43,355 nucleotides of DNA. Source: Octopus sinensis. Taxonomy: Eukaryota. The notes under the pieces were generated by a model. The model ran no database searches. It saw only the letters and a list, made by a program, of their open reading frames with translations, and was not told the origin of the DNA. A program made the translations under genes and the position numbers. How positions within the stretch are numbered: position 1 is the first letter of the stretch; every line of letters begins with the position of its first letter. The stretch is taken from positions 1-43,355 of the forward strand of contig NW_021834930.1 in NCBI RefSeq assembly GCF_006345805.1, given 5' to 3'. This document shows positions 1,927 through 43,297 of the stretch, piece after piece.

Positions 1927-1962
1927 CAGTACCGGTTTCAGTCATTGAGACTTTTTCAACTT
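1927..1962 (-). ncRNA. Minimal type-I hammerhead-like motif, U3-A8 core variant, within a ~140 bp element (1843-1980) following (TA)n
   Basis: Minus strand AAG-UUGAAAA-AGUC[UCAAU]GACU-GAAA-CCGG-UA-CUG: 4-bp stem II, palindromic ACCGGU stem III, GUA triplet; stem I only 2 bp. Confidence 0.6.
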
Positions 1963-2217
1963 TAACAATTAAGTAATTAAACAAAGTTGATGGGACAGGG
2001 TAAATTCATTGCCTCAACCTTAGTATTTTACTGGTACATTATTTTATAGCTCATAGTGATATGTGTTTTGGTAATTAATTTGACTGTTATGTCTAGCAGG
2101 TTTAGCAATTACATAGAAGCTTTCTTGTTAACCCAACAAAAACCAGTTTGAACTAGATTGCTGCAAAGTCGGCCGTTAATATTCTCTTTGCTCTGCCCTT
2201 CAAACACCCTTCCTATC

Positions 2218-2690
2218 GAAAGAAGAAAGAAAGAAAGAAGGAAAGAAGGAAGGAAAGAAAGAAAGAAGGAAAGAAAGAAAGAAGCAAACAGAGAGAGAGC
2301 GAAAGAAATAAAGAAAGAAAGAGAGAAAGAGAAAAAGAAAGAAAGAAAAAAGAAAAGAGAAAAAGAAGGAAAGAAAGAAAGAAAGAAAGAAAGAAAGAGA
2401 AAGAAAGAATGAAACAAGCAAACAGAGAGAGAGAGAGAGCAAAAGAAAGGAAGAAAGAGAGAGAGAGAGAGCAAAAGAAAGAAAGAGAGAGAGAAAGAGA
2501 GAAAGAAAGAAAGAAAGAGAGAAAGATTGAAAGAAAGAAAGAGAGAAAGATAGAAAGAAAGAAAGAAAGAAAGAATGAGAGAAAGAAAAAAAGAGAATGA
2601 GAAAGAAAGAGTGAAACAACAAACAGAGAGAGAGAGAGAGAGAGCAAGAGAGAGAGAAAGAAAGAAAGAAAAGAAAAGAAAAGAAATACA
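2218..2690. repeat. (GAAA)n/(GA)n polypurine tract
   Basis: Direct reading; source of spurious F/L/S and K/E/R ORFs. Confidence 0.95.
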
Positions 2691-3078
2691 GCAAAGCAAT
2701 GTGACCAGAAGTTTTTGTTTTGCTTTTAATTCCACTAACGAAGAAAACCTTTCTTATTATATTCCTCTAATTAACAAAAGATGTTAATTAATCATTGTCT
2801 TCGAATTTCAATTGTGATTATACCAATGACCTGTTGTTGAAACATAAAACCACTTGGCCTATTTTAGCACCACATCAAAGACAAAACCCATTTGTCCCGC
2901 TTGTTTGGTTGCCTCATATTTTCTTCAATTCAAATATGTGGTTGGGACACTGGATATTTTTACACAAACCTTTCTCAGTTAACTCATTCTTCTTTTTTTT
3001 CTTCTTTCCTTTTTACTTTGTCACGTTTGGTGAGTTTCCGGTTTCGTTTCATCATCATTATCAACAGCACTGGCATCA

Positions 3079-3116
<38 letters not shown>

Positions 3117-3645
3117 TTTAACTTCCGCTTCTCCATGTTCCCATGGATCGGACTGAATTCATTGAGACAGATTTTTTTTTTCTATAGCCAGATGCCCTTT
3201 CTGTCACCAAGTAAGGTGATTTTCCCCCCCATGGTCAGATGTGTTTTTATGGTCAGATGTGTGGAAATAAATGATACTGCTTGTATGTTGGTGGTGCTTG
3301 TTTACAACTACCATACAACGACAAGACGAGGACACACACACATATGATGGGTTTCTTTTGGTTTCCCTTCAAATCAATTCACAAGGCTTTAGTCAACCTG
3401 GTTCTATAGTAAGAGATACTTGGCCAAAATGACATGCAGTGTGATAGAACCTGAGATCACATAGTTGGGAAGGAAGCTTCCTAGCCACACATCCATGCCT
3501 GATATATATATTATATATTATATATATATATATATTATATATATATATATAAATCTACTACTAATATAGGATGAAGTTTTTTACAGAAAAAATTTCATCA
3601 AAAAGTGGCAGCATATTAAAATACCTTTAAAGGTTAAAATAAGTT

Positions 3646-3683
<38 letters not shown>

Positions 3684-3772
3684 TATATTAATATTAGGGA
3701 TATAACTCCAAACTTACAGGGAAAAATTCAATTTAGTATTAAATCAAATTTCACAATATAAATATATAATAT

Positions 3773-4000
3773 ATATAAATTAAAGAAAAACTACTATTAT
3801 GTAATTCAAACAATGATAGACATAAATCATACCATATAGAAAAAATAAAATATATGATAAAACAAAAATTACAAAACAATAAATAAACAGTATATAATTA
3901 GTAAATAACTACGTATATTTCGTGGTTATATTTTTTCTATATGGTATGATGTACGTCTGTCATTCTTTGAATTACATAATGGTTTTTCTCTGATTTATAT
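3773..4000. repeat. AT-rich imperfect inverted repeat between (TA)n tracts
   Basis: ATTATGTAATTCAAA..ATCATACCATATAGAAAAAATA vs TATTTTTTCTATATGGTATGAT..TTTGAATTACATAAT. Confidence 0.7.
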
Positions 4001-4016
4001 ATATTATATATGTATA

Positions 4017-4235
4017 TCAGGAGAATTTACAAAAAAACAAAAGACGAAGACAGGTGGTGTAGACAACAAACAGATGTATTAGTTTAACGCTTGGGAATTG
4101 AAAAAGTCTTTAACGTTTCGAGCCTATGCTCTTCCACAGAAAGGAACACAGAGAGAAACAAGGAGAGAAAATAAAGAATGTGTAGTGGCTAGCGATCTAT
4201 CATGGCGAATGTTGAACCGAGGGGGTCACACAGGA
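4017..4235 (-). mobile_element. Penelope pLTR-like short element carrying an HHR-like motif (same family as 43112-43297)
   Basis: Clear similarity to 43112-43297; motif at 4108-4143. Confidence 0.6.
4108..4143 (-). ncRNA. Minimal type-I hammerhead-like motif, A6U variant
   Basis: CUUU-CUGUGGA-A-GAGC[AUAG]GCUC-GAAA-CGUU-AAAG: stems I and II intact, palindromic AACGUU. Confidence 0.55.
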
Positions 4236-40429: not shown

Positions 40430-40632
40430 GTTACTTGTCCTCTTCTTGTTTGTTGTTGACACAACATTTCGGCTGATATACCCTCCAGCCTTCATCAGGT
40501 GTCTTGGGGAAATTTCGAACCTGGTTCTCATTCCTAAAGTATTTTTCGATGTTATTATAATTATTCAGGTCACTGCTTGGAATCGAACTCAGAATCGTGG
40601 GGTTAGTAGCCTGCACTCTTAACCACTATGCC
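40430..40632 (-). mobile_element. tRNA-headed SINE-like element ending in a hammerhead ribozyme
   Basis: GGCATAGTGGTTAAG A-box, CTACTAA anticodon-like loop, GAGTTCGATTCC B-box, then HHR. Confidence 0.75.
40458..40503 (-). ncRNA. Minimal type-I hammerhead ribozyme, canonical core
   Basis: GACAC-CUGAUGA-A-GGCUG[GAGGGUAUAU]CAGCC-GAAA-UGUU-GUGUC: perfect 5-bp stems I and II, GUU triplet. Confidence 0.75.
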
Positions 40633-40643
40633 CACGGGCATAT

Positions 40644-40780
40644 GGCATAGTGGTTAAGAGTGTGGGCTACTAACTCCAAGATTCCAAGTACGATTCCAAG
40701 TAGTGACCTGAATAATAACAACAAGAGCATCGAAAAATACCTTCGGAATGAGAACCCAGGTTTGAAATTTCCCCAAGACA
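40644..40780 (+). mobile_element. Inverted (head-to-head) truncated copy of the tRNA-HHR element
   Basis: Imperfect reverse complement of 40500-40632; stops at CCCCAAGACA, immediately before the HHR core. Confidence 0.85.
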
Positions 40781-41286
40781 AAAGGCAAAGTCGACCTTGG
40801 CGGAATTTGAACTCAGAACGTAAAGACAGACCAAATACTGCTAAGCATTTCACCTGGTGCGCTAATGTTTCAGCCAGCTTGCCACCTTATACATGGTACA
40901 AATAATGAAGCATGATAATGGTGATGATGATGATGATGTGATCCTTTTGATGCAGGAGGATCCCTGCTTAGGCCCAATCAACAAAACCTACATATCTGAG
41001 ATCATTTAAAAGATCAAGGATAAATGTCCTCTCCGAAAGACCCTGAAAATAGAAAGGAGAAAATTTCAAATAAAGATGATTTATCGTACACTGTCATATA
41101 TTTATGATTATTAATTTTCTAGTAATTAATTCTATCGGACTAATGATTACAGACAATTTAAATGTTTACAGTTGGATGAATATTTGCATACTGTAGCATT
41201 GACTGTTTTATCAGTTGAATGGCCTTCAATAACTCAACAAGACAAGTAGCTAATTTAGTATTCACATATTTGTGGCAGGAAATATT

Positions 41287-41690
41287 CTTTTATCTTATAT
41301 CGTTTTAACCTGTTCCAGTCAATGCACTGCGGCCATGCTGGAGCACTGCCTCGAAGAGTTGTAGTTGAACAATTTGGTCCCCTATTCTTTTTTTTTTTTG
41401 CTTTTAAAAGTCTGGCACTTATTCTATCAGTCTCTTTCCCCAAACCGCTAAGTCACAAGGATGTAAACAAACCAATACCGTTTGTAAAGTGGCATAGGGG
41501 ACAGGCATAAACACACACACACACACACACAATGATGTGCTTGTTTCAGTTTCCATCTCCAATCCATTCGGAAGATTTTGGTTCGCCCGGGATTATAGAT
41601 GAAGATACTTGCCCAAGATGCCATGCCATAGAAGTGAACCTGAAAGCAGATTGGTAGGAAGCAAACTTCTTACCACACAGCCATATCTGC
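41287..41690 (-). mobile_element. Diverged SINE family A
   Basis: Matches consensus with many substitutions. Confidence 0.75.
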
Positions 41691-42818
41691 AAACTATAAT
41701 GATTTAAAGAGAAATAATAATACATTGAGAAAAAAAAAATCAAATAAAATTATTTATACTTTTCTGTTAAATATGGGAGATAACTCTGGACATATTTTGT
41801 CCTTGTTTTGACCTCATTAGGCACAGACATTGCTGAGTGATTAAAAACTTCATGGCTCTAGATTTGATCCCATTCATGACAAGTCCTTCCCATGGGCATT
41901 TCTCCATGTATGATAGAGAAAGAGAGCCTGTGAGATCCCTGACAACAGGTTATTGTCCACTCTTACAAAATTAGCTGGAGCAAATGAAATCAAGAACTCT
42001 GAGAAATAGAAATAATAATACTAATACTACTACTACTAATAATAATAATCCTTTCTACAGGAAGTACAAGGCATCAAATTTGTGGTGAGGGGACTAGTCG
42101 ATTACATTGACCCCAGTGTTTCACTGGTACTTAATTTATTGACCCTGAAAGGATGAAAGGCAAATTACCCACCAAGGACAATTAACCCCCCTCACCTCCA
42201 TAGGACAATTCCCTCCAACGACAACTACCCCTTGGGGCAATTACCCCCTCTCCAATATATTAAGAAGTTTCAAATCATCATAATTGTCCTTGGAGTGGGA
42301 GATATTGTCCATGGGGGATAAATGACCTAGACTTATAGAAACTGCACCCCTCTGCCAAGCCATGTTGAACCAATGTGGCAGGGTAGGTTCATCAAACCAT
42401 TATGATCTCAAGTTCAAATCCATGGTCTTCACATCTGAGGAGAGAACCTGCTGAGGTCTTCATCCTACAGTGGACTGACAATAGGCAATCCAATCCAAGA
42501 CAAGCAGCTATGTGTGCCTTATCAGATATGGTAACAGGATTTCAACTCATGATTATGAGACTAATCAAACGACAGCTTAATCCCACAACTGTTGTGTAAT
42601 TGTGTCACTGTCAATAAGACTAAGCCAGGGGAGCCATCAGCTTATGTTAACTCAATACATATGTTCAGTTCCCTGCATCAGTTTTTGTTTCCTTTCCATA
42701 TCTTCTCTTACTGGACAGAGGCCAGTTGTGTGTGTCTGTGTGTGTGTGTGTGTGTGTCTATGTTGATATATATGTAACAAATTTATTACACGTTAACAAA
42801 GAATCACTGCTGTCACTC

Positions 42819-42859
<41 letters not shown>

Positions 42860-42965
42860 CGCACATACACGCATATGTGTGTGTGTGTGTGCATGTATAC
42901 ATATATATATGCATGTATATATACACATATGCATGCATGCATGCATACATACATACATACATACA

Positions 42966-42996
<31 letters not shown>

Positions 42997-43111
42997 GTAT
43001 ATATAATGTATTCACCTATACTAGCAATACCCCAAATATTACATAGATAATTATAATTCATACGAATATTTATTGCCAATACTTGTATAAATATATATAT
43101 ATATATATATA

Positions 43112-43297
43112 AAGGGAAAGTTTACGAAAATAAACAAAAGACGAAGGCAGGTGGAGTACAAACAAAACAAGTATTAGTATAGCACTCAGGAATAGAAAAA
43201 GTCTTTTACGTTTCGAGCTACGCTCTTCGACAGAAAGATACACAGAAAAAAACAAGGAGAGAAAAAAATGCGTGTAGGAGCTAACGATCTATCACGG
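43112..43297 (-). mobile_element. Penelope pLTR-like short element in (TA)n
   Basis: Homologous to 4017-4235; (TA)n on both sides. Confidence 0.6.
43202..43238 (-). ncRNA. Minimal type-I hammerhead-like motif, A6U variant
   Basis: UCUUU-CUGUCGA-A-GAGC[GUA]GCUC-GAAA-CGUA-AAAGA: 5-bp stem I, GUA triplet. Confidence 0.55.

What the first reader, a model, noticed from the sequence alone, without database searches (positions are those of the whole stretch)
1927..43238. Eight hammerhead-like motifs in 43 kb, in several distinct small elements
Seen: motifs at 1927-1962(-), 4108-4143(-), 13240-13279(-), 26023-26065(-), 26321-26362(+), 28541-28575(+), 40458-40503(-) and 43202-43238(-). They share the order stem I, core, stem II, GAAA, tiny stem III, UH, stem I', although stem sequences differ between element families. 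Several stem III regions are palindromic (ACCGGU, AACGUU, AACUAGUU). Established: palindromic minimal stem III allows PLE hammerheads to work as dimers. Inference: this genome hosts a dense, diverse population of PLE-derived ribozyme elements. Within an intron they could cleave pre-mRNA or antisense RNA.
Basis: partly seen in the sequence, partly recalled or inferred. Interest (0 to 1): 0.75.

Follow-up and report, generated by a model that had tools for sequence, protein, structure and literature searches.

The report
Penelope retrotransposon ends carrying hammerheads
The eight ribozyme-like motifs are real but mostly ordinary: they are seven short end-pieces of Penelope-type jumping genes from six repeat families, which likely carry their hammerheads as largely silent passengers; one family's end-piece also holds a tRNA-like segment that may act as a promoter.

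Summary
All eight motifs are at the stated coordinates and each lies in a dispersed repeat. They are seven insertions of six families (26023/26321 are one inverted pair). Four pass a strict hammerhead descriptor, against 0 in 50 shuffles. 1927 has a broken stem I, the 26023/26321 pair an atypical stem II, and 28541's whole family lacks stem I. Five families adjoin Penelope-like RT/GIY-YIG coding sequence elsewhere in the genome, and the families show Penelope marks (tails, inverted truncated copies, (TA)n targets). Stems and the 3-8 pair covary across families, so the master elements were likely selected for ribozyme folding. Among copies chosen only by sequence downstream of the cut site, 58 of 60 run through it, so insertion templates were likely uncut. 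The window is a repeat-rich patch (8 motifs versus about 1.1 per 43 kb in an even sample). Dispersed minimal Penelope hammerheads, including U3-A8 cores, are published. The host-gene cleavage idea is untested. The most unusual part is family B, a Penelope/Poseidon end repeat with a tRNA-like head where 12 of 14 long copies start; this scan noted it before on other DNA.

The parts
1846..1981 (-). Family E pLTR fragment ending in (TA)n; hammerhead 1927-1962 with U3-A8 core, 4-bp stem II, ACCGGU, A17; stem I cut to 2 bp in this copy
   Evidence: family adjoins a Neptune-type ORF end in L113 and L196
3993..4206 (-). Family A (older subfamily) pLTR fragment; hammerhead 4108-4143 with C3-G8, A6U, extra A, G10.1-C11.1, ACGU, U17
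13140..13151 (.). Target-site duplication, left copy on the + strand (12 bp); the empty site is present once in the paralogous repeat at 34345-34572
13152..13285 (-). Family D pLTR fragment; hammerhead 13240-13279 with U3-A8 core, extra G, G10.1-C11.1, 3-bp stem I, AAUU, U17
   Evidence: an 82%-alike subfamily follows a GIY-YIG ORF in L195
13287..13338 (+). Inverted copy of the family D tail at the 5' side of the insertion (Penelope-type inversion)
13339..13350 (.). Target-site duplication, right copy
25946..26134 (-). Family C inverted, 5'-truncated arm without tail; hammerhead-like motif 26023-26065
26131..26476 (+). Family C direct arm with 24-bp tandem repeat, motif 26321-26362 (U3-A8, 5-bp stem I, extra U before G12, ACUAGU, U17) and 35-nt tail, ending in (TA)n; same insertion as the inverted arm
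   Evidence: full-length element with two pLTRs in L193
28470..28708 (+). Family F, an old relative of family A; motif 28541-28575 has a canonical core but no stem I; internal 40-bp inversion at 28587-28626
40432..40640 (-). Family B direct arm: tRNA-like head, (AAT)n, ATG-led frame, canonical hammerhead 40458-40503 (5-bp stem I, 6-bp stem II, CpG-decayed AUGU, U17); cut off at the 3' side by another SINE
40570..40634 (-). tRNA-like segment with A-box- and B-box-like motifs about 45 nt apart (box consensus recalled)
   Evidence: not called a tRNA by ARAGORN or Rfam
40644..40780 (+). Family B inverted arm (head to the 5' strand of stem I), forming the 281-bp palindrome
43091..43297 (-). Family A pLTR fragment between (TA)n arrays; hammerhead 43202-43238 with C3-G8, A6U, 5-bp stem I, ACGU, A17
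   Evidence: family follows a Neptune-type ORF end in L186

Best explanation
The eight motifs are minimal type I hammerheads, intact, variant or decayed, inside seven short end-pieces (pLTR fragments) of six repeat families, five of which adjoin Penelope-like RT/GIY-YIG coding sequence elsewhere in this genome, and in these solitary copies the ribozyme is likely a mostly silent passenger. Shown: family membership, ORF linkage (well for B and C, by one or two loci for A, D, E; none for F), tails, inversions, a 12-bp target duplication, cross-family covariation, and that 58 of 60 sampled copies span the predicted cut site. Inferred from PAc (PMC11167929): the element's protein nicks AT-rich DNA and starts reverse transcription inside the RNA at one of two tail sites 50-150 nt downstream of the hammerhead, then copies back through the uncut ribozyme until it falls off or reaches the RNA's 5' end. 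That would deposit many 100-350-bp hammerhead-bearing fragments per full-length copy, with clustered 5' ends as seen in A and B. Inferred: selection on the fold acts in the master elements, where dimer- or protein-assisted cleavage would process tandem transcripts; inserted copies then decay neutrally.
For: ORF linkage: C in 6 of 23 non-window loci, and L193 has two pLTRs around ORF1 and an RT-EN ORF; B directly downstream of a Penelope/Poseidon-type EN end in 27 of 30 loci picked by the EN (one is the query, two are duplicates); E in L113 and L196, A in L186, D-like in L195. Tails and inversions. B ends about 121 and 156 nt after its ATG, close to the 111-118 nt of PAc. Covariation: 9 of 9 multi-copy clusters with a WC 3-8 pair and 8 of 9 with a self-complementary A15.1..U16.1, against 9 of 16 and 4 of 16 singletons. 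Uncut templates: 29 of 30 B and 29 of 30 A copies extend upstream of the cut site (one per set is the query's own locus, and L382 was re-read by eye as starting at the site). 5' ends: 20 of 30 A copies start 87-109 nt upstream of the site; 12 of 14 B loci that reach the head stop there. Decay: core plus both stems intact in A 40 of 57, B 36 of 98, C 16 of 22, D 21 of 30, E 7 of 21, F 0 of 18.
Against: No cleavage or transcription was measured. Family F has no ORF link (0 of 19 loci) and is placed only by likeness to A (2 of 3 copies above all 300 local shuffles). A, D and E rest on one or two loci each, D on an 82% subfamily. No B copy was found whose tail runs on into the ORF (none among the 30 loci), so the ATG-led frame is not shown to be the ORF start. 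The C ORFs seen are frameshifted, so these families may be extinct. Clusters are not phylogenetically independent. Copies spanning the site could also come from cut and re-ligated RNA. Intact fractions are biased upward because copies were chosen for likeness to the window.
Confidence: 0.82

Rival explanations
1. Some short units, family B above all, are self-propagating non-autonomous elements: the tRNA-like head would drive RNA polymerase III transcripts that the Penelope protein copies in trans, as a LINE copies a SINE. This adds to the best explanation rather than replacing it.
For: B head aligns best with the genome's tRNA-Arg(TCT) among 15 distinct tRNA sequences compared (z 6.7, score 52 versus max 39 in 200 shuffles); A- and B-box-like motifs 45 nt apart; 12 of 14 loci stop within 21 nt upstream to 4 nt downstream of the A-box start; no run of four T in 260-282 nt of two copies; 35,533 first-look candidates for the B frame versus 2,705 for the EN DNA (different search modes).
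Against: The head lies about 40 nt downstream of the ORF stop in the coding element's own pLTR, so a pile-up there marks a transcription start of either polymerase; family A piles up too without any tRNA-like part. Absence of T4 is expected about one time in three at 26% T (my estimate). ARAGORN and Rfam do not call the head. 16 of 30 loci stop downstream of the head.
Confidence: 0.4
2. The motifs are active ribozymes that cut host pre-mRNA or antisense RNA passing through the locus, alone or as dimers through their palindromic stem III.
For: Four copies pass the strict descriptor; 4108 and 43202 share ACGU on one strand and could pair in principle; 6 of 8 motifs are on the minus strand; 43202 and 40458 fold into stems I and II as monomers.
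Against: The only same-family same-strand pair is 39 kb apart and carries A6U; a change at A6 gave low activity in a natural case (A6C, PMC3088659 passage). Five of eight have U17. The C arms and the B arms would pair with each other in a read-through RNA. Single minimal hammerheads showed no cleavage and dimers little (PMC4209133); PAc's needed protein (PMC11167929). No host exon identified.
Confidence: 0.07
3. They are non-LTR retrozymes: tandem ~300-nt units that self-cleave, circularise and spread by rolling-circle copying.
For: Short non-coding units with type I hammerheads; retrozymes are proposed to derive from pLTRs (bioRxiv 10.64898/2026.07.22.740005, abstract to methods).
Against: No tandem array contains a motif in the window; second copies in fetched loci are inverted (B, C, D), and only 1 of 30 A loci has a second same-strand copy, 1.3 kb away; ends lie at tails, not at cut sites.
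Confidence: 0.05
4. Most of the eight are chance matches in AT-rich DNA.
For: A loose descriptor gives 7 hits against about 3.5 in shuffles; Rfam lists no hammerhead.
Against: All eight are conserved parts of repeat families at the pLTR hammerhead position; strict scan 4 versus 0; cross-family covariation.
Confidence: 0.03

Closest known systems
[quoted passage not shown]
   Same: Type I, 1-bp-equivalent palindromic stem III, several families per genome, mostly solitary or as close opposite-strand pairs, U3-A8 variant, extra nucleotide after A9 and G10.1-C11.1 (A, B, D, F).
   Different: Family-wide A6U (A), A10.1-U11.1 without extra base (E), extra U before G12 (C), lost stem I (F). Not found in the held papers searched; supplements and Lunse et al. 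2017 were not seen.
Neptune-type EN+ PLEs (CX2-5CxxC linker, (TA)n targets; PMC8557442, passages)
   Same: Partners of A, C, D and E have the CxxxxCxxC linker before GIY-YIG; tails and inverted truncated copies; (TA)n flanks for A, C, E and many D copies.
   Different: The C partner and relatives have an upstream ORF1 overlapping the RT-EN frame at a T6-A run; clade assigned by motif, no tree built.
Penelope/Poseidon clade, PAc of the green anole (PMC11167929; parts 1-2 of 4 and passages)
   Same: B partner lacks the Cys linker; an ATG-led frame runs through the hammerhead to the element's end; two 3' ends about 35 nt apart, 121 and 156 nt after the ATG; copies from uncut RNA.
   Different: B's pLTR holds a tRNA-like segment just after the ORF stop, where most long short-copies begin.
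Schistosoma SM-alpha / Sj-alpha SINE-like hammerhead elements (review PMC6765202, passages)
   Same: Pol III-type promoter followed by a type I hammerhead (family B).
   Different: Those are described as tandem repeats released by cleavage; B is dispersed, head-to-head, ends in a PLE tail and is contiguous with a PLE ORF.
Non-LTR retrozymes (PMC7229834, passages; bioRxiv 10.64898/2026.07.22.740005, part 1 of 5)
   Same: Short non-coding hammerhead-bearing repeats of likely PLE origin.
   Different: No tandem units here; ends are not at cleavage sites.

Membership tests
PLE minimal hammerhead | Core CUGANGA..GAAA..UH or U3-A8 variant | tested here: met
   Met in B, F (canonical) and C, D, E (U3-A8); A carries A6U family-wide
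PLE minimal hammerhead | Stems I and II can form | tested here: inconclusive
   Met for 4108, 13240, 40458, 43202; stem II register atypical in C; stem I 2 bp at 1927; absent at 28541 and in 0 of 18 F relatives
PLE minimal hammerhead | Self-complementary A15.1..U16.1 | tested here: met
   Family majority palindromic in A-E; window copies 40458 and 28541 altered by CpG decay
PLE minimal hammerhead | Stem and core covariation across families | tested here: met
   9 of 9 clusters WC at 3-8; stems differ in sequence yet pair
PLE minimal hammerhead | Self-cleavage as dimer or with protein | not testable with these tools
   Only contigs of unconfirmed RNA runs were available
EN+ Penelope-like element | pLTR adjoins an RT plus GIY-YIG ORF on the same strand | tested here: met
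   B 27 of 30, C 6 of 23, E 2 loci, A 1, D-like 1; Pfam RVT_1 on L193 30.5 bits, GIY-YIG on L195 33 bits. Not shown for F
EN+ Penelope-like element | Direct pLTRs flanking the ORF | tested here: inconclusive
   Seen for C (L193); not found for the other five families
EN+ Penelope-like element | Optional 30-55-nt tail and inverted 5'-truncated copy | tested here: met
   B, C, D show both; E shows inversion; A showed no inversion in 30 loci
EN+ Penelope-like element | Phylogenetic placement of RT | not tested
   Clades assigned by linker motif only; L312 versus L183 BLASTP E 2e-19
tRNA-derived SINE (family B) | tRNA-related head with A and B boxes | tested here: met
   Best match tRNA-Arg(TCT), z 6.7 among 15 sequences, not a full tRNA set; box consensus recalled
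tRNA-derived SINE (family B) | Head is foreign to the partner autonomous element | tested here: not met
   The head is part of the coding element's own pLTR
tRNA-derived SINE (family B) | Transcribed by RNA polymerase III | not testable with these tools
   Indirect only: 5' pile-up at the head, no T4
Non-LTR retrozyme | Head-to-tail tandem units each with a hammerhead | tested here: not met
Non-LTR retrozyme | Circular monomeric RNA | not testable with these tools
   No raw RNA reads offered

The most novel reading that the evidence does not exclude
A protein-coding Penelope/Poseidon element has captured a tRNA-Arg-like polymerase III promoter into its end repeat and, through internal priming at the tail, sheds tens of thousands of SINE-like hammerhead copies made from uncut RNA; with family F, which spread with a hammerhead lacking stem I, this genome is a natural test showing that Penelope hammerheads are dispensable for insertion.
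Probability: 0.4. Interest if true: 0.6.

Novelty: new member of a known kind. Interest (0 to 1): 0.33.

Why it matters
As given, the finding extends a published pattern (thousands of dispersed minimal PLE hammerheads per animal genome) to a likely octopus genome, with a rough 68,000 motif-bearing fragments from seven profiles (10 in 400 kb, scaled; wide error). Its value is as material on an open question, what PLE hammerheads are for: masters keep the fold under covariation, yet insertions come from RNA spanning the cut site and one family spread without stem I. The natural core variants (A6U, extra U before G12) are ready for cleavage assays. The tRNA-headed pLTR of family B would, if polymerase III use were shown, link Penelope elements and SINEs.

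Tried and rejected
Loose descriptor scan: not discriminating. Rfam: no hammerhead among the 150 of 204 rows shown; no tRNA match on 40430-40800; ARAGORN none in the window and 8 B loci. Search for B's partner by a divergent RT fragment beside one B copy gave another clade, with B only in the query's own locus among 30. B's short frame as protein query: no homologue among longer proteins and no copy running on into an ORF; the partner was found from the upstream side instead. MITE reading of the 26-kb palindrome: rejected, since the arms are a tail-less inverted copy and a tailed direct copy of a PLE end. Sequencing runs: no RNA holder listed on record; contigs laid on a B copy show only presence and the two 3' ends. 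Laying RNA contigs on the window returned nothing, so whether the window is intronic is open. The A-versus-F alignment used a copy in the wrong orientation and was redone. The automatic 5'-end call for L382 was wrong and was re-read by eye. The even sample is 400 kb from contigs C1-C6 only. Lunse et al. 2017 is not held. No supplement was read; the alignments in the supplement of PMC4209133 and repeat libraries such as that of PMC13282606 may already hold these families or variants.

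
Full report
Setting. The window is a whole 43,355-bp contig of a 2.72-Gb animal genome. About 53% is interspersed repeat and it is full of microsatellites. A 69%-identical homologue of one partner protein is labelled as an octopus protein, so the host is likely an octopus. After masking, no host exon was recognisable; two candidate frames gave no Pfam hit.

Observation. With at most one core change and 3-4-bp stems, 3 motifs pass, against shuffle means of 0.1-0.35; with two changes and 3-bp stems 7 pass against about 3.5. 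A descriptor allowing the published U3-A8 core and A6U, and requiring a dimer-compatible A15.1..U16.1, passes 4 (4108, 13240, 40458, 43202) against 0 in 50 shuffles. Rfam lists no hammerhead in the 150 rows shown.

Families. Each motif lies in a dispersed repeat. First-look candidates (lower bounds): A 1,702, B 3,319 by DNA and 35,533 by protein, C 1,106 (19), D 670 (20), E 291 (24), F 215 (25). 4108 and 43202 are both A; 26023 and 26321 are the inverted and direct arms of one C insertion. So seven insertions, six families. Profiles of these families and of a young seventh family find these eight motifs in the window and no more.

They are Penelope ends. C lies 0.6-0.9 kb downstream of a GIY-YIG ORF end in 6 of 23 non-window loci, and L193 has two pLTRs around an ORF1 and an RT-EN ORF. 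E follows an ORF end in L113 and L196, A in L186, and an 82%-alike D subfamily in L195; all four partners have the CxxxxCxxC linker described for Neptune/Nematis (PMC8557442, passages). B follows the C-terminus of a linker-less Penelope/Poseidon-type endonuclease in 27 of 30 loci picked by that endonuclease; L434 shows RT, EN and an inverted end piece upstream. The B-partner fragments had no Pfam hit themselves, but their homologues carry PF00078 and PF26215 and L312 matches the intact ORF of L183 at E 2e-19. F has no ORF link but resembles A. Tails (35 nt in B and C, about 55 nt in D), inverted truncated copies and (TA)n flanks match the described PLE insertion structure; the D insertion has a 12-bp target duplication and an empty paralogous site.

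Covariation. A scan of all 1.9 Mb held that did not require 3-8 pairing or a palindrome gave 10 multi-member clusters; I dropped one that is both strands of one palindrome. In the other 9 the majority core has a Watson-Crick 3-8 pair (5 C-G, 4 U-A) and in 8 the A15.1..U16.1 segment is self-complementary, with different stem I and II sequences; among 16 singletons the figures are 9 and 4.

State of the copies. Against family majorities: 43202, 4108, 13240 and the C pair are typical of their families; 40458 has a CpG-type change in stem III; 1927 has lost a stem I pair; 28541 belongs to a family in which 0 of 18 relatives form stem I. Family-level oddities are A6U in A, an extra U before G12 in C and U17 in B, C, D. 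U3-A8 is known and active; a natural A6C variant had low activity (PMC3088659, passages).

Was the RNA cut? I picked 30 B and 30 A copies by sequence downstream of the predicted cut only. 29 of 30 in each extend upstream through the ribozyme; one in each starts within about 4 nt of the site, about what scattered truncation would give. This parallels PAc, where catalytic mutants inserted normally and the ribozyme needed the protein (PMC11167929). The 5' ends cluster instead: 20 of 30 A copies start 87-109 nt upstream of the site, and 12 of the 14 B loci that reach the tRNA-like head stop there. I infer that internal priming at the tail, followed by copying to the RNA's start or earlier drop-off, produces these short fragments.

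Family B. Its head aligns best with the genome's tRNA-Arg(TCT) among 15 tRNA sequences compared and has A- and B-box-like motifs (consensus recalled). It starts about 40 nt after the ORF stop, inside the coding element's pLTR. An ATG-led frame runs through the hammerhead to the end, with 3' ends about 121 and 156 nt after the ATG. Polymerase III use is untested. Earlier notes of this scan report the same family on other DNA; three placed the head inside a coding element's pLTR, which moved me from a plain SINE reading and which searches confirm.

Density. An evenly spaced 399,900-bp sample of contigs C1-C6 holds 10 profile hits in 8 insertions, 1.1 motifs per 43 kb, none passing the strict descriptor; reversed sequence gives 0. 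Flanks of other copies hold 3.5 per 43 kb. The window has 1.6 times the (TA)n arrays and 2.4 times the common SINE of the even sample. It is an upper-tail, repeat-rich patch; the profiles were built from its own families, which inflates the contrast.

Literature. Dispersed minimal hammerheads in several families per genome, opposite-strand pairs and U3-A8 cores are in PMC4209133 (parts 1-2 of 4 read), which also reports no cleavage by a single motif and low cleavage by dimers. Searches of the held library for hammerhead with octopus or cephalopod, Penelope with tRNA-derived SINE (34), octopus genome with Penelope and SINE (35), Penelope-like with polymerase III and pLTR (87) and A6U (76) found no description of these families; PMC13282606 (parts 1-2 of 3) counts octopus PLE families without describing ribozymes. 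Subscription papers, supplements and repeat libraries were not seen.

Verdict. Real, well above chance, and of a known kind: Penelope end fragments with hammerheads. The claim of host RNA cleavage is untested and unlikely. Interest 0.33; the tRNA-headed pLTR and the evidence for uncut templates are the parts worth following.

Noticed in passing
L183:674-4374 (+), L182, L184, L193: Neptune-type PLEs with a 240-480-aa ORF1 overlapping the RT-EN frame; a run of six or seven T followed by A sits in the overlap in three divergent families, a likely -1 frameshift site. PMC8557442's Fig. 1 legend mentions frameshifted ORF1 in some PLEs; which clades was not seen.
   Followed up: partly
L182:5155-5200 and L158, L167, L170-L173: A young PLE family (several 781-aa open frames listed) carries a U3-A8 hammerhead with ACAUGU stem III and A17; the best candidate for assays.
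   Followed up: partly
window 34345-34572 and 12991-13417: A 228-bp element with terminal inverted repeats (MITE-like); the copy at 13 kb is interrupted by the family D insertion.
   Followed up: partly
window 18284-18601 (-): 106-aa frame resembling a decayed Tc1/mariner transposase C-terminus (by eye; no Pfam hit).
   Followed up: partly
window 6836-7190 and 8431-8785: 355-bp inverted repeat, 92% complementary, 1,240 bp apart.
   Followed up: no
window 6422-6760 and 16229-16609: Two similar stretches giving similar translations, probably a repeat not covered by the masking.
   Followed up: no
window 509-962, 19478-19727, 9647-9860, 21360-21717: Tandem arrays: 184-bp SINE-like unit x2.5, 61-66-bp units x3-4, and a 57-bp purine-rich unit x6.3.
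   Followed up: no
L098, L105, L110, L195 upstream of family D: Family D's 3' UTR is a long (CA)-rich tract shared between short copies and the ORF-linked copy; family A's is a long C-rich tract (L186).
   Followed up: partly
L218, L219, L220, L225, L227: Two further hammerhead families with canonical CUGAAGA core beside a third PLE-like RT clade.
   Followed up: no
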